Positions 1-4,543 of a stretch of 4,543 bases of DNA are shown in pieces; the stretch's first letter is position 1, and each line of letters begins with the position of its first letter. The notes under the pieces were generated by a model that saw nothing but the letters and a program-made list of their open reading frames with translations, did not search any database and was not told where the DNA came from. The stretch lies in the IMG/VR virus record IMGVR_UViG_2695420746_000012; one strand, 5' to 3'. The position numbers and the translations under genes were made by a program. Source of the stretch: a virus (lineage: Duplodnaviria; Heunggongvirae; Uroviricota; Caudoviricetes).

Positions 1-11
1 CGCGTTATTAG

Positions 12-55
12 TTATCTTATTCTCAAATTGTGTTACGATAATCCGAGCGGATAAT
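12..55 (+). promoter_or_regulatory. Candidate telN promoter elements (uncertain)
   Basis: Two GATAAT hexamers (37-42 and 50-55) lie within a GATAATC direct repeat (37-43, 50-56). TTGTGT at 28-33 is a possible -35 for the second one with a 16-bp spacer, but that would start transcription inside the telN Shine-Dalgarno, so the true promoter may lie upstream of the window. Confidence 0.2.
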
Positions 56-68
56 CAGGAGAGGAAAG

Positions 69-1964
69 ATGAGCAAAGTAAAAATCGGTGAATTAATAAA
101 CTCACTTGTTAGCGATGTTGAGTCAATAGATAACTCTGACCGTCCTCAAGGGGAAAAAACAAAAAAAATAAAGGCTGTTGCATTAAAATTTAAAAATGCA
201 TTATTTAATGACAAGCGAAAGTTTAGGGGGAAAGGATTAGAAAAAAGAATTACAGCCAACACATTCAATGCCTATATGAGCAGGGCCAGAAAACGGTTTG
301 ATGATAAACTTCATCATAGCTTTGAAAAAAATATACATCGCCTATCTGAAAAGTATCCTTTATATAATGAGGAGCTATTGTCATGGCTTTCTCTACCTGC
401 TGCCGATATTCGCCAAAGAATGTCAGCTTTACAGACAAAATTAAAATTAATTCTCCCTTTATCAGAAGATTTATCTAATATAAGAATTGGTGATAACAAA
501 AGTCATAATAAGTTATTAAAATTATCAAATAAATATAAAGAGTGGCAATTCGCCATTTCTGATTTAACTAGCGATAACTGGAAAGATAAGCGCGATTATT
601 TATATAAATTACTACAGCAAGGATCTGCCTTACTTGAGGAGTTGAATCAGCTAAAAGTTAACCATGAGATTCTCTATCATCTTCAACTAAGCCCTGCCGA
701 ACGAGCATCTATCCAGCAACGATGGGCGGACGTTCTGCACAATAAGAAACGTAACGTGGTGGTCATTGATTACCCTAAATATATGCAAGCTATTTACGAT
801 ATTATAAATAGCCCTGCTACATTAAATAATCTAAACACTCGTTCAGGTATGGCTCCTTTGGCATTTGCACTTGCTGCATTGTCAGGAAGACGAATGATTG
901 AGATTATGTATCAAGGTACATTTACTGTTTCTGGTAAGTATACCGTTGATTTTTTAGGCCAAGCTAAAAAAAGAACTTCTGATGATATAACCAGAAAAAT
1001 ATATACATTATGCGAAGCAAAAACATTTGTTTATTTAATAAATGTACTTCGCTCATGCCCAGCAGCATCTGATTTTGATGATGTCGTTAAAGGTTATGGA
1101 GATAACGACACACGCTCTGAAAACGGACGTATTAATGCCATATTAGCAAAGGCTTTTAACCCGTGGGTTAAATCATTTTTCAAAGATGACCGCCGTGTTT
1201 ATAAAGATAGTCGTGCTATTTATGCCCGTATTGCGTATGAAATGTTTTTCCGCGTAGATCCTCGTTGGAAAAACGTAGATGAGGATGTTTTCTTTATGGA
1301 AATTTTAGGCCATGACGATGAAAACACTCAATTACACTATAAGCAATTCAAGCTGGCCAACTTCTCAAAGACATGGAGGCCAAATACTGGAAACGAAAAT
1401 ACCAGGCTGGAAGCATTGCAGCAGCTTGATGACAAAATGCCTGGATTCGCCAGAGGAGATGCCGGGGTTCGTCTGCATAACACAGTTAAGCAGCTGGTAG
1501 AGCAGGACCCCTCTATAAAAATCACGAACAGCACTCTAAGAGCATTCAAATTTAGCCCAACAATGATTAGTCGATACCTGGAATTTGCTGCTGATGCTCT
1601 GGGGCAATTTGTTGGCGAAAATGGACAATGGCAGCTGAAAATAGATACTCCAGAAATCGTTATGCCTGACGAAGAAGAGCTGGTAGCAATACCTGAACAG
1701 ACGGATGAATTATCAGAGGATGACGATCTGGATGACGACGAAATTGAGATAGAGGAAGAGGAAGAGGAAGAGAGCGTAGAAGAACAGCAACCGCCCGCGC
1801 CTTCTTCACCTGTATCTAAGCCGGTATTTAAGCCTGTGAGAAATATTGGTGATGGCTCATACGTTGTTGAGTTTCATTATAATGGCCAGAATTATGCTTG
1901 GTCCGGCAGTGCAAACAGCCCTATGTCAGCAATGCAGTTAGCATGGCTGACATATTTCGGATAA
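69..1964 (+). CDS. telN: Protelomerase (telomere resolvase) TelN, N15 family
   Basis: 631-aa ORF with Shine-Dalgarno AGGAGAGGA at 57-65 before the ATG at 69. From memory it matches phage N15 TelN along its whole length, including MSKVKIGELI at the N-terminus, SRAIYARIAYEMFFRVDPRW, and the C-terminal YAWSG motif. Tyr424 (LHYKQF), Arg275, Lys300 and His415 sit at positions I recall as TelN active-site residues. An acidic Glu/Asp-rich linker precedes the C-terminal domain, as in TelN/TelK. Confidence 0.95.
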   Translation: MSKVKIGELINSLVSDVESIDNSDRPQGEKTKKIKAVALKFKNALFNDKRKFRGKGLEKRITANTFNAYMSRARKRFDDKLHHSFEKNIHRLSEKYPLYNEELLSWLSLPAADIRQRMSALQTKLKLILPLSEDLSNIRIGDNKSHNKLLKLSNKYKEWQFAISDLTSDNWKDKRDYLYKLLQQGSALLEELNQLKVNHEILYHLQLSPAERASIQQRWADVLHNKKRNVVVIDYPKYMQAIYDIINSPATLNNLNTRSGMAPLAFALAALSGRRMIEIMYQGTFTVSGKYTVDFLGQAKKRTSDDITRKIYTLCEAKTFVYLINVLRSCPAASDFDDVVKGYGDNDTRSENGRINAILAKAFNPWVKSFFKDDRRVYKDSRAIYARIAYEMFFRVDPRWKNVDEDVFFMEILGHDDENTQLHYKQFKLANFSKTWRPNTGNENTRLEALQQLDDKMPGFARGDAGVRLHNTVKQLVEQDPSIKITNSTLRAFKFSPTMISRYLEFAADALGQFVGENGQWQLKIDTPEIVMPDEEELVAIPEQTDELSEDDDLDDDEIEIEEEEEEESVEEQQPPAPSSPVSKPVFKPVRNIGDGSYVVEFHYNGQNYAWSGSANSPMSAMQLAWLTYFG

Positions 1965-1975
1965 AGCATACGGTA

Positions 1976-2008
1976 AAGGCACCGAATTATCGGTGCCTTG
2001 TTGTGTTG
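1976..2008. terminator. Intrinsic terminator hairpin between convergent telN and the antirepressor remnant
   Basis: Perfect 10-bp inverted repeat AAGGCACCGA (1976-1985) / TCGGTGCCTT (1990-1999) with loop ATTA, followed on the + strand by the T-rich GTTGTGTTG (2000-2008). It starts 12 bp after the telN stop; on the - strand it is followed by the weaker TTTACCGTATGCTTTAT. Confidence 0.6.
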
Positions 2009-2009
2009 C

Positions 2010-2174
2010 CTACCTCGCCTGCCCCTTTTCGTCCTCATCAAACTTTCTGATGGCCGTAGAATCAATACCCGACGCCATACACACATCAGATGCAACAAAC
2101 CACGGTTCGCCGTTAATCATCACTACACGAACCTGATGCTCTTCCGGAAAGGAAAAGACTGCTAACGCGCTCAT
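2010..2174 (-). pseudogene. Truncated phage antirepressor, BRO-N/Ant N-terminal domain fragment (54 aa)
   Basis: My own translation of the - strand (below the ORF track's length cutoff): MSALAVFSFPEEHQVRVVMINGEPWFVASDVCMASGIDSTAIRKFDEDEKGQAR. It carries the BRO-N hallmark (FxF...R-hydrophobic-I-[DN]-GEPWFVA-DV...DDEKG) and has a strong Shine-Dalgarno AAGGAGG (2180-2186, - strand) 5 nt before the ATG at 2174. It stops at 2010-2012, right against the telN terminator hairpin, whereas full antirepressors are roughly 200-300 aa. Confidence 0.6.
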
Positions 2175-2404
2175 TCAGCCTCCTTATCGTGCAGCAATTG
2201 CGACGAGAGCGATGCTGAATACCCCTGTGCTTCGTGTGTTAGCTCACACGCAATTTGAAGGAGTTTCCCTGCTTCTGAGAGATAAATCGACGCCTCACAA
2301 CTGGAGATTGTCCGATGGGCTGATGATACGAGCGCATAGACCTGAGCCAGACGTTCATCCAACGATTCCAGCAGGCCAACAGTGTTCATTTTTACCTGAT
2401 TCAT
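2171..2404 (-). CDS. Hypothetical 77-aa protein, translationally coupled upstream of the antirepressor fragment (Icd-like by position only)
   Basis: ORF with Shine-Dalgarno GAGGTGG about 6 nt before the ATG at 2404. Its TGA stop overlaps the antirepressor ATG (ATGA at 2171-2174). No sequence family recognised; the placement matches icd in P1 immI / N15 immA. Confidence 0.5.
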   Translation of the reverse strand: MNQVKMNTVGLLESLDERLAQVYALVSSAHRTISSCEASIYLSEAGKLLQIACELTHEAQGYSASLSSQLLHDKEAE

Positions 2405-2565
2405 GCAGCCACCTCGCGCACCGGAATACGGGCAGACAATACCAGGACAAACCGGCTGGCGAACTGGCGACGAGCTTCCCGTTCAGATGACGCGATAGTG
2501 GAAAGATGATGGATGTGTGACTTTTTGTCTGTGCGAACGACTGCCGCAAATTTGAATTTGAACAT
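2401..2565 (-). CDS. Small leader ORF (54 aa from ATG 2565), ORFx-like, coupled to the next gene
   Basis: The ORF track starts this frame at a GTG (2613) inside an RNA hairpin; the first ATG is at 2565 with a weak AAGAG Shine-Dalgarno. Its TGA stop overlaps the ATG of the 77-aa ORF (ATGA at 2401-2404). Protein from the ATG: MFKFKFAAVVRTDKKSHIHHLSTIASSEREARRQFASRFVLVLSARIPVREVAA. Whether it is translated is uncertain. Confidence 0.3.
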   Translation of the reverse strand: MFKFKFAAVVRTDKKSHIHHLSTIASSEREARRQFASRFVLVLSARIPVREVAA

Positions 2566-2589
2566 GGTATGCACTCTTGTTTGGAAGAA

Positions 2590-2700
2590 CAGTGCTACCA
2601 CCAGAGTTCTCACGCTCTAAGGGGGTGGTAGCCCAGACGGGGGTGAGAATACCGGCCCAAACGATACCGGCCAGCCTTTCGGCTGCCCCGCCTGAGCCAC
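2590..2700 (-). ncRNA. Candidate structured regulatory RNA / leader (c4/CI/CA-like immunity RNA region); boundaries approximate
   Basis: In - strand sense: a 5-bp hairpin with GAAA tetraloop (CAGCC-GAAA-GGCTG, + coordinates 2672-2685); a 9-bp stem GCTACCACC/GGTGGTAGC (2594-2602 / 2624-2632) enclosing a 4-bp hairpin with loop CGUGAGAA; and a single-stranded UUCUCAC (2643-2649) complementary to that loop. It sits directly upstream of the ORFx-like RBS. Confidence 0.3.
2606..2615 (-). repeat. 10-nt motif GCGTGAGAAC (- sense), copy 2, in a hairpin loop (stem AGAG/CTCT, 2603-2618)
   Basis: Exact 10-mer also present at 2780-2789. Here it lies in the loop of a 4-bp hairpin nested within the 9-bp stem 2594-2632. 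Confidence 0.5.
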
Positions 2701-2730
2701 CATAATTCGGATATGCGCAGGCTTATATAC

Positions 2731-2757
2731 ACACAAAAAAACACGCTGGCGCGTGTT
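2731..2757 (-). terminator. Intrinsic terminator within the leader of the antirepressor operon
   Basis: - strand: 7-bp stem (+ coordinates 2740-2746 / 2751-2757, AACACGC/GCGTGTT), loop of 4 nt, followed by UUUUUGUGU (+ strand A-run 2733-2739). It lies between the two GCGTGAGAAC hairpins. Confidence 0.45.
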
Positions 2758-2776
2758 GTGCGTCGCTTGGGATATT

Positions 2777-2792
2777 CGGGTTCTCACGCCCG
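2777..2792 (-). repeat. 10-nt motif GCGTGAGAAC (- sense), copy 1, in a hairpin loop (stem CGGG/CCCG)
   Basis: Exact 10-mer at 2780-2789, flanked by the 4-bp inverted repeat CGGG (2777-2780) / CCCG (2789-2792). Same loop as copy 2 but a different stem sequence, i.e. compensatory pairing. Confidence 0.5.
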
Positions 2793-2812
2793 GCTGCGGG
2801 ATTTACCGCAGC
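2793..2812. promoter_or_regulatory. Operator-like palindrome GCTGCGG-N6-CCGCAGC
   Basis: 7-bp perfect inverted repeat separated by 6 bp (GATTTA), immediately downstream (- sense) of the candidate promoter. Could be a repressor operator or the 5' hairpin of the leader RNA. Confidence 0.3.
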
Positions 2813-2818
2813 GGAGTA

Positions 2819-2848
2819 ACTTTACCGTCAAAACGACGCACACGTCAA
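2819..2848 (-). promoter_or_regulatory. Candidate sigma70 promoter for the leader / antirepressor operon
   Basis: - strand -35 TTGACG (+ coordinates 2843-2848), 18-bp spacer, -10 TAAAGT (2819-2824). A second TTGACG at 2826-2831 has no good -10. Weak match, inferred mainly from position. Confidence 0.2.
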
Positions 2849-2868
2849 TAATTTGCAAAGACATTTTA

Positions 2869-2900
2869 CCCCGTGACCAGTCACGGGGACAGGTGTTTTT
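2869..2900. terminator. GC-rich hairpin with flanking A/T runs; probable terminator separating the four-gene operon from the antirepressor module
   Basis: Inverted repeat CCCCGTGA(C) / (G)TCACGGGG (2869-2888). On the + strand it is followed by ACAGGTGTTTTTAT; on the - strand it is preceded by an A-run and followed by TAAAATGTCTTTG. It lies 62 nt downstream of the - strand operon stop (2950), so it plausibly ends that operon, but the U-tract is better in + orientation. Confidence 0.4.
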
Positions 2901-2949
2901 ATAGTTTGCTTGAACGAGTGATCAGAAGTTGATCGTTAATCAAAGGCCA

Positions 2950-3237
2950 TTACGGATTAAGAGAGTGGAAATACCTAACTAACTTACCGGCATCATCACA
3001 TTTTTCTTTATCTTCTTCCTTAACATAGCCGCGACAGAAGGCTGAATAAAATTTCGCATTTTCAGAAGCAAAAGCAGCCGTCGAAAGGAGCAGTTCTTTG
3101 CATGATTCTTTTGATGCAGCATCGGGATTATTTTTACATGCAAGCTCCGCTGATGAGTTAATAACAGAAATGCTATCTTCCTGGGCATAAACCGCAGCAG
3201 AAAAGGCAAAACATAAAACCAAAATAAAACTCTTCAC
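2950..3237 (-). CDS. Small secreted protein (95 aa, predicted signal peptide, 4 Cys in mature part), unknown function
   Basis: The ORF track begins this frame at a GTG (3261) with no Shine-Dalgarno. A GTG at 3237 is preceded by a strong AGGAG (3243-3247) with a 5-nt spacer, giving MKSFILVLCFAFSAAVYA|QEDS..., a typical Sec signal peptide. The mature part is Lys/Glu-rich with four cysteines. Last gene of the operon. Confidence 0.55.
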   Translation of the reverse strand: MKSFILVLCFAFSAAVYAQEDSISVINSSAELACKNNPDAASKESCKELLLSTAAFASENAKFYSAFCRGYVKEEDKEKCDDAGKLVRYFHSLNP

Positions 3238-3257
3238 TTTATCTCCTGTAACAGTTA

Positions 3258-3659
3258 TCACAACTCAATCAACTTTTTAGCATCAGCCATACGCTTCAAC
3301 CAGTAATCAACAATCGGTTGCTCATCCACAGAATGTTTACCTGGTATAACTCGCCAGCTGTCTGCCGAAAGGCTACCGTATCTATGCGGGAAAAGGCATT
3401 TCTTTAGCTCCTGCCATGTGCTAGGAAAACCGTCTGCCAAAGTGCCAATTAACAGAAAAGGGACAAAAATCAGGGCTACAAACCATCGGGCAAGAAAGTG
3501 CTCAACAATAACCTCTTCACCGTTATAGTAATACGCATACGTATCCCATATACGAATTTTCCTTACCCTAAAAATGGCCTTATGCTGAGAACGACTTAGC
3601 TTGATGCGAATGTATCCCTTATCCAAGAGGGATTGGTGTTTGTATGATTGAACAGCCAT
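3258..3659 (-). CDS. Hypothetical membrane protein (133 aa from ATG 3659; one central TM helix)
   Basis: The track starts this frame at a GTG (3671) overlapping the upstream gene; the first ATG (3659) is 2 nt after the upstream stop and is preceded by GTGGGG. It has a basic N-terminal region (IRIKLSRSQHKAIFRVRKIRIW) and a hydrophobic segment WFVALIFVPFLLIGTLADGF. No family recognised. Confidence 0.5.
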   Translation of the reverse strand: MAVQSYKHQSLLDKGYIRIKLSRSQHKAIFRVRKIRIWDTYAYYYNGEEVIVEHFLARWFVALIFVPFLLIGTLADGFPSTWQELKKCLFPHRYGSLSADSWRVIPGKHSVDEQPIVDYWLKRMADAKKLIEL

Positions 3660-3661
3660 TT

Positions 3662-3988
3662 TTAACCCCACTCACCATCAGCAAACAAAGCGTTATACTC
3701 TGACAATGGTAGACGGTTGCCCTCGATGTAGAGATTCAGTTCATACTTCGTCTCCGGGTTTTCCTTGTCGGCTCGTTCCCAACGCTCAGCAGCCTTACAC
3801 GCCAATAATTCCACTGCTTTCAGATAATCCTCCGTACGGAACCAGCCAAAGATAAGGCCACGATCTGTTACAGCCCAGGCAACCTTTTTTTCTTCCTCCT
3901 GGATAGCCTTAATGCGTCGATCGCATTCATCCCGGCAAAACTGCAGCTGACGGTAATCAAGTTTGTCCAAAAATGCAGTAGTAGACAT
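3662..3988 (-). CDS. Hypothetical soluble protein (108 aa)
   Basis: ATG at 3988 preceded by Shine-Dalgarno GGGGAG, which lies in the last codons of the upstream gene, 4 nt after its stop. No hydrophobic segment; charged and helical-looking. No family recognised. Confidence 0.55.
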   Translation of the reverse strand: MSTTAFLDKLDYRQLQFCRDECDRRIKAIQEEEKKVAWAVTDRGLIFGWFRTEDYLKAVELLACKAAERWERADKENPETKYELNLYIEGNRLPLSEYNALFADGEWG

Positions 3989-3992
3989 ATTT

Positions 3993-4184
3993 TTACTCCC
4001 CGTTCACCGAAAAATCACGATAGAAACATTTCCACATACGATAAGTCTGCGCGAGTTGTTCACCACGAAACATCGCCTTCCTGGCCTTCATGTTTTCCTT
4101 GTGAGACTTTCGATCTATGAACCAAAACCATTGCTGGAACACACAAAGCAAGAGACACAAAGATAATATCCACTGATTACCCAT
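3993..4184 (-). CDS. Hypothetical small membrane protein (63 aa, N-terminal TM helix)
   Basis: Taking the ATG at 4184: MGNQWILSLCLLLCVFQQWFWFIDRK..., an N-terminal hydrophobic helix followed by a basic tail. The Shine-Dalgarno is weak (AGGG about 9 nt upstream). The same frame stays open upstream across the IS2 boundary, so the true 5' end is uncertain and the gene may be IS-truncated. Confidence 0.4.
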   Translation of the reverse strand: MGNQWILSLCLLLCVFQQWFWFIDRKSHKENMKARKAMFRGEQLAQTYRMWKCFYRDFSVNGE

Positions 4185-4220
4185 AGAAAGCGCCCTGCTC
4201 TTCGTAGCTGCATGGGCTAT

Positions 4221-4261
4221 TAGACTGGCCCCCTGAATCTCCAGACAACCAGTATCACTTA
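4221..4261 (+). repeat. IS2 left terminal inverted repeat (IRL), approximate extent
   Basis: Terminal approximately 41 bp of IS2 beginning TAGACTGGCCCCC; the right-hand copy lies outside the window. Confidence 0.7.
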
Positions 4262-4311
4262 AATAAGTGATAGTCTTAATACTAGTTTTTAGACTAGTCA
4301 TTGGAGTACAG

Positions 4312-4543
4312 ATGATTGATGTCTTAGGGCCGGAGAAACGCAGACGGCGTACCACACAGGAAAAGATCGCAATTGTTCAGCAGAGCTTTGAACCGGGGAT
4401 GACGGTCTCCCTCGTTGCCCGGCAACATGGTGTAGCAGCCAGCCAGTTATTTCTCTGGCGTAAGCAATACCAGGAAGGAAGTCTTACTGCTGTGGCCGCC
4501 GGAGAACAGGTTGTTCCTGCCTCTGAACTTGCTGCCGCCATGA
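4312..4543 (+). CDS. insC: IS2 OrfA (transposase regulatory protein InsC), 5' part only
   Basis: ATG at 4312; translation [77 protein letters not shown]... is the IS2 OrfA N-terminus with its helix-turn-helix. The ORF runs off the window end with no stop, which is why it is absent from the ORF track. Confidence 0.9.

What the first reader, a model, noticed from the sequence alone, without database searches (positions are those of the whole stretch)
2950..4184. Compact four-gene operon of small membrane and secreted proteins with no recognisable family: candidate superinfection-exclusion, defence or conversion module
Four tightly packed - strand genes (intergenic gaps 4, 2 and 20 nt, each with its own RBS) encode a 63-aa single-TM protein, a 108-aa soluble protein, a 133-aa protein with a central TM helix, and a 95-aa secreted Cys-containing protein. 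I recognise none of them as head, tail, lysis, replication or partition functions. They sit in an accessory position between a degraded anti-immunity locus and an IS2 copy, the kind of moron site where phages carry envelope-located exclusion proteins (compare T4 Imm/Sp, lambda RexB), small defence systems or toxin-immunity pairs. Function is entirely hypothetical.
Basis: inference. Interest (0 to 1): 0.7.

Follow-up and report, generated by a model that had tools for sequence, protein, structure and literature searches.

The report
Tail of a phage-plasmid repA operon
The four small genes are real, but they are the downstream end of the replication-gene operon of an N15-like linear phage-plasmid, cut from that gene by an IS2 insertion; only the last one, a small exported protein, looks like swappable cargo, and no function is known for any of them.

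Summary
Four tightly packed minus-strand genes of 63, 108, 133 and 95 aa lie at 2950..4184, with gaps of 4, 2 and 20 nt. All four are conserved as proteins in related elements.

The window is an N15-like telomere phage-plasmid. In every uninterrupted relative the four genes directly follow repA, and the repA stop codon overlaps the start of gene A (ATGGGTAA). Here IS2 sits inside repA, 14 codons before its stop, so the IS2 border is an accident of this copy.

The set is not co-conserved:
- **A (63 aa)** accompanies one type of RepA C-terminus.
- **B (108 aa)** is N15 gp35, found in nearly all N15-like elements examined, and a remote paralog of N15 gp34/DUF5448.
- **C (133 aa)** is found in some lineages and, in the loci examined, never together with the N15 gp33-type protein.
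- **D (95 aa)** occupies the hypervariable position. Sister elements carry lipoproteins, an acyltransferase or the Klebsiella telocin/immunity pair there.

D has a signal peptide, four conserved cysteines and a predicted helical fold. Distant relatives occur as single inserted genes in other phages. One GenBank record calls it "Spackle", but only the signal peptides align. None of the four matches any PADLOC defence model, and no confident match to a solved structure was found for B, C or D (A was not searched). D as an envelope-protective factor is an inference. Interest is low to moderate.

The parts
4221..4543 (+). Left end of IS2: terminal repeat TAGACTGGCCCCCTGAATCTCC..., with the insC/orfA start at 4312. 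It is inserted into repA.
   Evidence: 95-99% identity to annotated IS2 copies (H11-H20). Homology to uninterrupted relatives stops at about 4221.
4177..4220 (-). 3' remnant of repA: the last 14 codons (...SPCSYEEQGAFYG) plus the TAA stop at 4179..4177. The rest of repA lies beyond IS2, outside the window.
   Evidence: Translation; alignment with pEC21Z151-46K and PhiR46_1; repA annotations.
3993..4184 (-). Gene A, 63 aa, pI 9.5. It has a short N-terminus, one membrane helix and a basic C-terminal domain with the conserved motif G-x3-A-x2-YR-x-W-x3-YR. Its ATG overlaps the repA stop (ATGGGTAA). It is a backbone gene linked to the '...EAFYG' type of RepA.
   Evidence: PGAP does not annotate it; the PhiR46_1 record does.
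3662..3988 (-). Gene B, 108 aa, acidic (pI 4.9) and soluble. It is the homolog of N15 gp35 (PHROG 10878) and a backbone gene of N15-like elements. The predicted fold is alpha-beta-beta-alpha-alpha-beta-alpha. It is a remote paralog of N15 gp34 and DUF5448.
   Evidence: pLDDT 91.8; hhalign 95%.
3258..3659 (-). Gene C, 133 aa, basic, with one central membrane helix (PHROG 15458). It always lies directly after B where present. In the loci examined it never occurs together with the N15 gp33-type protein.
2950..3237 (-). Gene D, 95 aa (PHROG 26765). It has a Sec-type signal peptide (predicted cleavage AVYA|QE) and a mature part of about 76 aa that is acidic and helical, with four conserved Cys (C34, C46, C68, C80). 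Its GC content (38.9%) is the lowest of the four genes. It occupies the variable cargo position.
2869..2888 (.). GC-rich hairpin (CCCCGTGA-CCAG-TCACGGGG) 62 nt downstream of D. It is a candidate terminator that would insulate the repA operon from the anti-immunity promoter. The U-tail is weak on the minus strand.
   Evidence: Read from the sequence; folding of window:2850-2952:- (z = -2.3). It was not picked up by the simple terminator scan.
2621..2812 (-). Downstream boundary of the slot: the leader of the anti-immunity operon, with isrK (2736..2812) and C4 antisense RNA (2621..2707). A promoter-like site lies at 2848..2819.
   Evidence: Rfam gathering-score matches; promoter scan.

Best explanation
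**Shown.** The window comes from an N15-like linear phage-plasmid. Genes A-D are the distal end of the leftward repA transcription unit. They fill the slot between repA and the C4-RNA/icd anti-immunity operon, the same slot that holds genes 33-36 in N15. IS2 has inserted into repA 14 codons before its stop. This separates the four genes from the body of repA and from its promoter.

The four genes are a mosaic, not one system:
- A is a small membrane protein whose start overlaps the stop of one RepA type.
- B is N15 gp35, present in nearly all N15-like elements examined, and belongs to a superfamily with N15 gp34/DUF5448.
- C is a lineage-variable single-pass membrane protein.
- D sits in the hypervariable cargo position.

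**Inferred.**
- A and B serve the phage-plasmid itself, as early or replication-linked accessory functions. They are not needed for replication as such, because repA alone is a minimal replicon.
- D is exported by Sec, folds in the periplasm into a small helical domain that could be stapled by two disulfides, and binds an envelope or incoming target. That would protect the carrier cell, by exclusion of incoming phage or by immunity to an envelope-active toxin or enzyme.
- D would be made at a low level by read-through from the CB-controlled repA promoter and at a higher level after induction.
- In this copy, IS2 probably reduces or abolishes that expression.
For: **Context.**
- telN, the BRO-N remnant, the gp31-like gene, icd and C4 RNA lie to the left. 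repA lies immediately to the right in PhiR46_1 and pEC21Z151-46K.
- The IS2 junction is at 4220/4221, inside repA.
- N15 has genes 33-36 in the same slot, and only gp35 is homologous.

**Mosaic structure, from 43 IMG/VR loci plus NAR688.**
- The distance from the end of B to icd ranges from 743 to 2655 bp.
- A occurs only with the '...EAFYG' RepA tail.
- C occurs in the E. coli clade and in L026, L039, L042 and L049.
- Among the IMG/VR loci D occurs only in the E. coli clade; a 45%-identical relative occupies the same slot in another N15-like element (L055). In place of D other elements carry a 270-aa lipoprotein (L012, L013, L018), a related 272-aa lipoprotein (L023), a 138-143-aa lipoprotein (L010, L038), a hexapeptide acyltransferase (L027), an HTH protein (L028) or TelA/ImmA (L029, L030, L043, L044).
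- C can be 84% identical while D is 100% identical in the same relative, which points to recombination between them.

**D as mobile single-gene cargo.** Relatives lie in the same slot of another N15-like element (L055), between the gpI-like and gpJ-like tail genes next to a lipoprotein gene (L006), and just upstream of the tape-measure gene (L009, L059). The last is the site of the HK97 gp15 exclusion moron (PMC3594210).

**Export.** The signal peptide, an A-x-A-type cleavage site and four Cys are conserved. The model is helical, pLDDT 76 overall and 77-90 over most of the mature part.

**Expression of the slot.** In NAR688 lysogens the cargo proteins TelA and ImmA were detected by proteomics (PMC12042878). 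CB operators overlap the repA promoter (PMC4488713). No promoter-like site was found on the minus strand between 4220 and 2950.
Against: - No experiment and no confident homology gives a function for any of the four.
- D has no promoter of its own (the gap to C is 20 nt), so it does not meet the classical definition of a moron.
- The NAR688 homologs of A and B (gp48 and gp49) were not among the nine proteins detected in lysogens. Read-through expression in lysogens may therefore be negligible, and the genes could act only in lytic growth.
- The structural searches returned nothing significant.
- Sec export and disulfide formation are predictions from sequence.
- The polar effect of IS2 on the four genes was not measured, and the far end of IS2 is outside the window.
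Confidence: 0.55

Rival explanations
1. One reading: the four genes form one co-functional module for superinfection exclusion, defence or toxin-immunity, carried as a unit in a moron site.
For: Tight packing with gaps of 4, 2 and 20 nt on one strand. Three predicted envelope proteins. All four occur together in 12 complete E. coli genomes and 17 PLSDB plasmids.
Against: - A and B occur without C or D in NAR688 and in L010, L027, L030, L037 and L044.
- B occurs alone in N15, and C occurs without D in L012, L013, L018, L026, L042, L039 and L049.
- D relatives occur without A, B or C in tail modules.
- There are no PADLOC hits.
- The unit is the tail of the repA operon, not an inserted cassette.
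Confidence: 0.08
2. C and D form a two-gene cargo pair: a membrane protein plus a periplasmic partner, acting either as a two-part exclusion system or as a toxin and its immunity protein.
For: They are adjacent with a 20-nt gap and no promoter between them. Both are predicted envelope proteins. They co-occur throughout the D-bearing E. coli clade.
Against: - C is found without D, and the D family without C.
- In L015 and L019, C is only 84% identical to the window's C, while D is identical in L015 and about 96% identical in L019. This points to independent histories.
- C sits in the position that the gp33-type protein holds in other elements, next to backbone gene B.
Confidence: 0.1
3. D is a homolog of T4 Spackle (gp61.3), as annotated in GenBank PV340565, and blocks incoming phages by inhibiting their tail lysozyme.
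For: The PhiR46_1 record labels the 99%-identical protein 'Spackle exclusion protein'. The gross features are similar: Spackle is a 97-aa precursor whose 75-aa mature form is periplasmic, helical and disulfide-bonded (PMC7677548).
Against: - hhalign of the D family against T4 Spackle aligns only the 16-residue signal peptide, at 38% probability.
- phmmer and a profile search of PDB sequences do not find Spackle.
- Foldseek against the PDB gives no hit with E below 1, and Spackle is not among the 50 best of 88 hits.
- The cysteine pattern differs: four Cys against two.
Confidence: 0.04
4. All four are early lytic or establishment functions, such as host takeover or anti-defence, with no role in the lysogen. 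On this view B and its paralogs gp34/DUF5448 are small acidic inhibitor proteins.
For: - They sit in the CB-repressed leftward operon behind repA.
- B is acidic (pI 4.9) and occurs alongside remote paralogs in the same slot.
- The A and B homologs were not detected in the NAR688 lysogen proteome.
Confidence: 0.2

Closest known systems
Phage N15 genes 33-36 (the slot between repA and the cA/antirepressor operon)
   Same: Same genomic position, strand and packing: four small genes directly behind repA. B is 64% identical to gp35 over its full length. N15 gp33, like C, carries one predicted membrane helix, placed nearer the C-terminus.
   Different: A, C and D have no detectable homolog in N15. 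hhalign of C against gp33 gives 0.4% probability. N15 has gp36, a soluble 82-aa protein, where this element has A.
Telocin/immunity cargo locus of Klebsiella telomere phages (NAR688 TelA-ImmA; PMC12042878)
   Same: Same locus between repA and the protelomerase gene. It lies directly after the homologs of A (37% identity) and B (64%). It differs between closely related phages, and its products were detected in lysogens.
   Different: Neither C nor D aligned to the TelA or ImmA genes when all four proteins were searched by tblastn against the NAR688 locus. A survey of E. coli and Shigella N15-like elements also found no telocin homologs (bioRxiv 10.1101/2025.09.12.675607). TelA is 377 aa and ImmA is a predicted four-helix inner-membrane protein of 181 aa (PMC12042878). 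D is a 76-aa soluble periplasmic protein.
T4 Spackle (gp61.3), periplasmic inhibitor of the gp5 tail lysozyme
   Same: Similar size, Sec signal peptide, helical and disulfide-bonded periplasmic protein. D may work in a comparable way, by binding an envelope-active target.
   Different: No homology beyond the signal peptide. No fold match. Four Cys in two C-x11-C pairs against one disulfide (C29-C81) in Spackle. D is carried by a temperate phage-plasmid rather than expressed early by a virulent phage.
Envelope morons of siphophages (HK97 gp15, Cor of N15/phi80/HK022, T5 Llp)
   Same: Small envelope proteins encoded by single inserted genes. D relatives sit between the tail-chaperone and tape-measure genes, which is the HK97 gp15 site (PMC3594210), or between gpI-like and gpJ-like tail genes next to a lipoprotein gene.
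   Different: No sequence relationship was tested or found. gp15 is an inner-membrane protein and Cor and Llp are lipoproteins, whereas D is predicted to be soluble in the periplasm. In the window D has no promoter of its own.

Membership tests
N15 gp35 family (PHROG 10878) - gene B | Full-length sequence similarity to N15 gp35 | tested here: met
   64% identity over 107 aa, E 1e-52; PHROG 10878 E 9e-52 over the full length.
N15 gp35 family (PHROG 10878) - gene B | Position downstream of repA in a protelomerase-bearing element | tested here: met
   In most of the 43 related IMG/VR loci, B was accompanied by telN and by a repA-like open frame where the flank allowed.
DUF5448 / N15 gp34 superfamily - gene B | Profile-level homology | tested here: met
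   hhalign of A2 against A6: probability 95.4%, E 1.8e-8, 89 columns. The 127-aa member matches Pfam DUF5448 at E 7e-19. B itself has no direct Pfam hit, so the relationship is remote.
T4 Spackle (gp61.3) - gene D | Sequence homology of the mature protein | tested here: not met
   hhalign aligns only residues 1-16, the signal peptide. There is no Spackle hit in PDB sequence searches.
T4 Spackle (gp61.3) - gene D | Fold similar to 6X6O / 6XC0 | tested here: not met
   Foldseek against the PDB gives a best E of 1.8 (14-3-3, Der p 5). Spackle is not among the 50 best hits shown. The model has moderate confidence (pLDDT 76) and included the signal peptide.
T4 Spackle (gp61.3) - gene D | Export to the periplasm through a cleavable signal peptide | tested here: met
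   The hydrophobic N-terminus and an A-x-A-type cleavage site are conserved in all relatives. This is a prediction only.
T4 Spackle (gp61.3) - gene D | Binds and inhibits a phage tail lysozyme | not testable with these tools
   Needs a binding or activity assay.
Telocin-immunity cassette of telomere phages | Location between repA and telN, after the homologs of A and B | tested here: met
   NAR688 locus L005; PMC12042878, Fig. 2B legend.
Telocin-immunity cassette of telomere phages | A pore-forming bacteriocin plus a multi-pass inner-membrane immunity protein | tested here: not met
   C and D did not align to the TelA or ImmA genes in a tblastn search of the NAR688 locus. There are no bacteriocin or immunity Pfam hits. 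D is soluble and C has a single membrane helix.
Known anti-phage defence systems (PADLOC-DB 2.0) | A match of any of the four proteins to a defence-system model | tested here: not met
   0 families at E up to 1 for all four.
Classical moron (own promoter and terminator, atypical composition, patchy distribution) - gene D | Patchy distribution and atypical base composition | tested here: met
   Among the 43 IMG/VR loci D occurs only in the E. coli clade, and other genes take its place in sister elements. GC is 38.9% against 47.7% for B.
Classical moron (own promoter and terminator, atypical composition, patchy distribution) - gene D | Own promoter and terminator | tested here: inconclusive
   No promoter-like site, and only 20 nt between C and D. 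A GC-rich hairpin lies 62 nt downstream, but its U-tail on the minus strand is weak.

The most novel reading that the evidence does not exclude
The D family is a new kind of periplasmic exclusion or immunity protein: about 76 aa, helical, with two conserved C-x(8-13)-C cysteine pairs that could staple adjacent helices. It would spread as a single-gene cargo, both in the repA-telN slot of telomere phage-plasmids and in the tail modules of siphophages. It would protect lysogens by binding an incoming phage tail component or an envelope-active toxin, working like Spackle without being related to it. A second, independent possibility is that the B/gp34/DUF5448 superfamily is a set of small acidic inhibitors of host defence encoded behind repA.
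Probability: 0.2. Interest if true: 0.55.

Novelty: new member of a known kind. Interest (0 to 1): 0.3.

Why it matters
Telomere phage-plasmids are common in Klebsiella and also occur in Escherichia, Shigella and Salmonella. Their repA-telN slot was recently shown to deliver bacteriocins that shape competition between strains. The E. coli and Shigella elements carry no telocin, so what they carry there instead is an open question.

This analysis separates backbone genes (A, B) from exchangeable cargo (D, perhaps C). That reduces a vague four-gene candidate to one small exported protein that can be tested directly. It also corrects a misleading "Spackle" label in a public record. Finally, it shows that the apparent IS2 boundary is a disruption of repA, which matters for judging whether this copy is still a working replicon.

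Tried and rejected
- **Family libraries.** Pfam, NCBIfam and PADLOC scans of all four proteins gave nothing significant. The only hits were for D: DUF2385 at E 0.089 and TIGR02301 at E 0.066, both over the cysteine-containing region. These are recorded as a lead only.
- **Sequence searches of the PDB.** Single-sequence and profile searches for B, C and D found nothing.
- **Structure of D.** The model has pLDDT 76. Foldseek against the PDB returned only generic helical matches.
- **C against N15 gp33.** Tested as possible divergent homologs and rejected: hhalign probability 0.4%.
- **The 137-aa neighbour of a D relative in L006.** Tested as a possible counterpart of C and rejected. It is an unrelated lipoprotein.
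- **"gp35 detected in NAR688 lysogens".** Rejected as evidence that B is expressed. In that paper's numbering, gp35 is a RelE/ParE toxin.
- **The exact IS2-repA junction in public records.** It was not found in the phage, plasmid or complete E. coli genome collections searched.
- **Genome-contig scan with the B profile.** It returned one locus only.
- **Not done.** There was no structure-prediction quota left for A or C.
Full report
**1. What is in the window**

The window carries, from left to right:
- a 631-aa protelomerase gene (69..1964, +);
- a 54-aa BRO-N remnant, a gp31-like gene and an icd-like gene on the minus strand (2010..2565);
- Rfam-level matches to C4 antisense RNA (2621..2707, -) and isrK (2736..2812, -);
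- the four ORFs of the finding;
- the left end of IS2 (from 4221).

It is 96% identical over 1..4221 to Escherichia phage PhiR46_1. It is 94-99.8% identical over 2900..4221 to about 17 plasmids of 27-92 kb (many about 46 kb) from E. coli and Shigella. The element is therefore an N15-like telomere phage-plasmid.

**2. Check of the observation**

The four minus-strand ORFs are as described: A 3993..4184 (63 aa), B 3662..3988 (108 aa), C 3258..3659 (133 aa) and D 2950..3237 (95 aa, GTG start after AGGAG). The gaps are 4, 2 and 20 nt.

Hydropathy gives an N-terminal helix in A, a central helix in C and a signal-peptide-like N-terminus in D. B is soluble.

All four are conserved as proteins:
- The A family has 25-89% identity and an invariant G-x3-A-x2-YR-x-W-x3-YR motif.
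- B has 72 homologs across Enterobacterales.
- C aligns with homologs at 25-83% identity, and pN/pS is 0.30 over 45 substitutions.
- D has relatives of 32-45% identity that keep the signal peptide, an A-x-A-type cleavage site and all four cysteines.

**3. The true context: the tail of the repA operon, cut by IS2**

In PhiR46_1 and pEC21Z151-46K, a 1331-aa RepA gene (primase / CyRepA1 family) lies immediately upstream on the same strand. In the window the last 14 repA codons (...SPCSYEEQGAFYG) and the TAA stop survive at 4177..4220. The stop overlaps the ATG of A (ATGGGTAA).

Homology to the relatives ends at about 4221. There the IS2 terminal repeat TAGACTGGCCCCC... begins. IS2 is therefore inserted into repA. 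It is not a natural border of a cassette.

No sigma-70-like promoter was found on the minus strand between 4220 and 2950. In N15, the CB repressor binds two OL operators that overlap the predicted repA promoter (PMC4488713).

N15 itself has four small genes, 33-36, in the same slot.

A GC-rich hairpin at 2869..2888 follows D. A promoter-like site for the C4/isrK/icd operon follows at 2848..2819.

**4. The four genes are a mosaic, not a unit**

I fetched 43 IMG/VR loci with a B profile and added NAR688 and N15. I then mapped A, C, D, icd and TelN onto them.

- **B** was the anchor used to fetch the loci, and clear full-length homologs were found across N15-like elements.
- **A** occurs only behind RepA proteins that end in '...EAFYG', and its start always overlaps the repA stop. 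N15-type RepA (ending '...QRQAVAI') is followed by gp36 instead. A third RepA type is followed directly by B.
- **C** always comes directly after B when present. It is found in the E. coli clade and, at 29-49% identity by tblastn, in L026, L042, L039 and L049.
- **The N15 gp33-type membrane protein** is found in many of the other loci, and never in a locus that has C. The two are not detectably homologous.
- **D** is confined to the E. coli clade among these loci.

Where D would be, other elements carry other genes:

| Gene at the cargo position | Loci |
|---|---|
| 270-aa lipoprotein | L012, L013, L018 |
| Related 272-aa lipoprotein | L023 |
| 138-143-aa lipoprotein | L010, L038 |
| Hexapeptide acyltransferase | L027 |
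| HTH protein | L028 |
| TelA/ImmA bacteriocin-immunity pair | L029, L030, L043, L044, NAR688 |

The distance from the end of B to icd ranges from 743 to 2655 bp.

In L015, C is only 84% identical to the window's C while D is 100% identical. This indicates recombination between the two genes.

**5. The slot is a known cargo locus**

PMC12042878 shows that, in Klebsiella telomere phages, the locus between repA and the protelomerase gene carries distinct telocin-immunity cassettes. TelA and ImmA were among only nine phage proteins detected in lysogens.

In NAR688 the gene order is repA, an A homolog (37% identity), a B homolog (64%), ImmA, then TelA on the opposite strand. The "gp35" detected in that study is a RelE/ParE toxin in the authors' own numbering. 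The A and B homologs (gp48 and gp49) were not among the detected proteins.

A survey of E. coli, Shigella and Salmonella N15-like elements reported no telocin, no known AMR or virulence genes and no complete defence system (bioRxiv 10.1101/2025.09.12.675607).

**6. What each protein looks like**

- **A** is basic (pI 9.5). It has a four-residue N-terminus, one membrane helix and a basic 40-aa tail, so the tail probably lies in the cytoplasm. PGAP does not annotate it.
- **C** is basic with one central helix, and no family could be assigned.
- **D** has a mature part of about 76 aa (pI 5.05). The model has three helices beyond the signal peptide (pLDDT 76 overall, 77-90 over most of the mature part). 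The cysteines form two C-x11-C pairs, C34/C46 and C68/C80. Each pair flanks a turn between adjacent helices. This would suit two disulfide staples, but that is an inference.

**7. The "Spackle" label**

The PhiR46_1 record calls the D ortholog "Spackle exclusion protein". T4 Spackle is a 97-aa precursor whose mature form of 75 residues is periplasmic and helical with one disulfide (PMC7677548).

The label does not hold up:
- hhalign of the D family against T4 Spackle aligns only the first 16 residues, the signal peptide.
- Sequence searches of the PDB do not find Spackle.
- Foldseek finds no match with E below 1.

Membership is rejected. A comparable way of working, as a periplasmic binder or inhibitor, remains possible.

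**8. Where D relatives live**

- P0090 (45% identity) lies in another N15-like element just upstream of the C4/icd region, with a partial extra C4-like copy on its other side (L055).
- P0092 lies between the gpI-like and gpJ-like tail genes, next to a lipoprotein gene (L006).
- P0093 and P0094 lie just upstream of the tape-measure gene (L009, L059-L062). This is the site of the HK97 gp15 exclusion moron (PMC3594210).

D is also the most AT-rich of the four genes (38.9% GC). D therefore behaves as mobile single-gene cargo.

**9. Best explanation and rivals**

*Shown:* the operon context, the IS2 disruption, the mosaic structure and the predicted locations of the proteins.

*Inferred:*
- A and B are backbone accessory genes of the replication/early operon. 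They are not needed for replication as such, since the repA gene of the related phage PY54 works alone as a minimal replicon (title of Ziegelin et al. 2005, cited).
- D is an exported protein that protects the envelope of the carrier cell, through exclusion or immunity.
- D is expressed by read-through from the repA promoter, and probably poorly in this IS2-bearing copy.

*Rivals:*
- One four-gene module: low probability, because the set is not co-conserved.
- A C+D pair: low probability, because the two have independent distributions.
- A true Spackle homolog: rejected.
- Purely lytic or anti-defence roles: plausible for A and B, untested.

**10. Verdict**

The genes are already present in public records as hypothetical proteins, and three of them are in PHROGs families of unknown function. 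The slot is a known cargo locus. What is new is the separation of backbone from cargo, recognition of the small A family that the RefSeq (PGAP) annotation of a close relative leaves out, the link of B to gp34/DUF5448, and the removal of the Spackle label.

Interest is low to moderate at 0.3. It would rise if D proved to be a new exclusion or immunity protein.

Noticed in passing
window 4177..4543: IS2 is inserted inside repA, 14 codons before its stop. RepA therefore loses its conserved C-terminal '...SCSYEEQGAFYG' tail, and the downstream genes are cut off from the repA promoter. No record in the phage, plasmid or complete E. coli genome collections searched carries this junction. This copy may be a damaged or recently disrupted replicon.
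   Followed up: partly
window 2621..2812 (-): Matches above the Rfam gathering score to C4 antisense RNA (75 bits) and isrK (67 bits), upstream of icd. The RNA part of the anti-immunity locus looks intact, not degraded. Only the BRO-N antirepressor gene is reduced, to 54 aa here against 264 aa in N15, and it is equally short in the close relatives annotated.
   Followed up: partly
GenBank PV340565 (L001 3086..3373), ortholog of window 2950..3237: The public record annotates this protein as 'Spackle exclusion protein'. Only the signal peptides of the two proteins align, so the label appears to be an annotation artefact that could spread to other records.
   Followed up: yes
L010, L039, L042, L049 (about 4907..4993 in locus coordinates): A further tiny ORF (MPPVKVVIITLLLLGVCQLIARTGFGIW, about 28 aa, one hydrophobic helix) lies between the A and B homologs in several N15-like elements. 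It is absent from the window.
   Followed up: no
L055 3838..3952 and 4335..4840: In another N15-like element the D-like gene is flanked by a partial extra copy of the C4-RNA region (75% identity over 117 nt) and by the complete copy. This hints that cargo is exchanged there by recombination at this repeated sequence.
   Followed up: no
L010, L027, L028, L030, L032, L037, L040, L046 (slot downstream of B): The slot often holds one or more remote paralogs of B: N15 gp34-type proteins, 127-173-aa DUF5448 proteins, and proteins of 75-105 aa. All share the pattern helix, beta-hairpin, helix. This is a small gene family expanded behind repA, of unknown function.
   Followed up: partly
L027 6258..6896 (-): One Enterobacterales N15-like element carries a hexapeptide-repeat acyltransferase at the cargo position. 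This is a candidate gene for surface-polysaccharide modification (lysogenic conversion).
   Followed up: no
window 2950..3237 (-), residues 33-85 of D: Weak matches of similar strength to Pfam DUF2385 (E 0.089) and TIGR02301 (E 0.066), both over the cysteine-containing region. They are below threshold, but could point to a distant family of small exported Cys-containing proteins.
   Followed up: no
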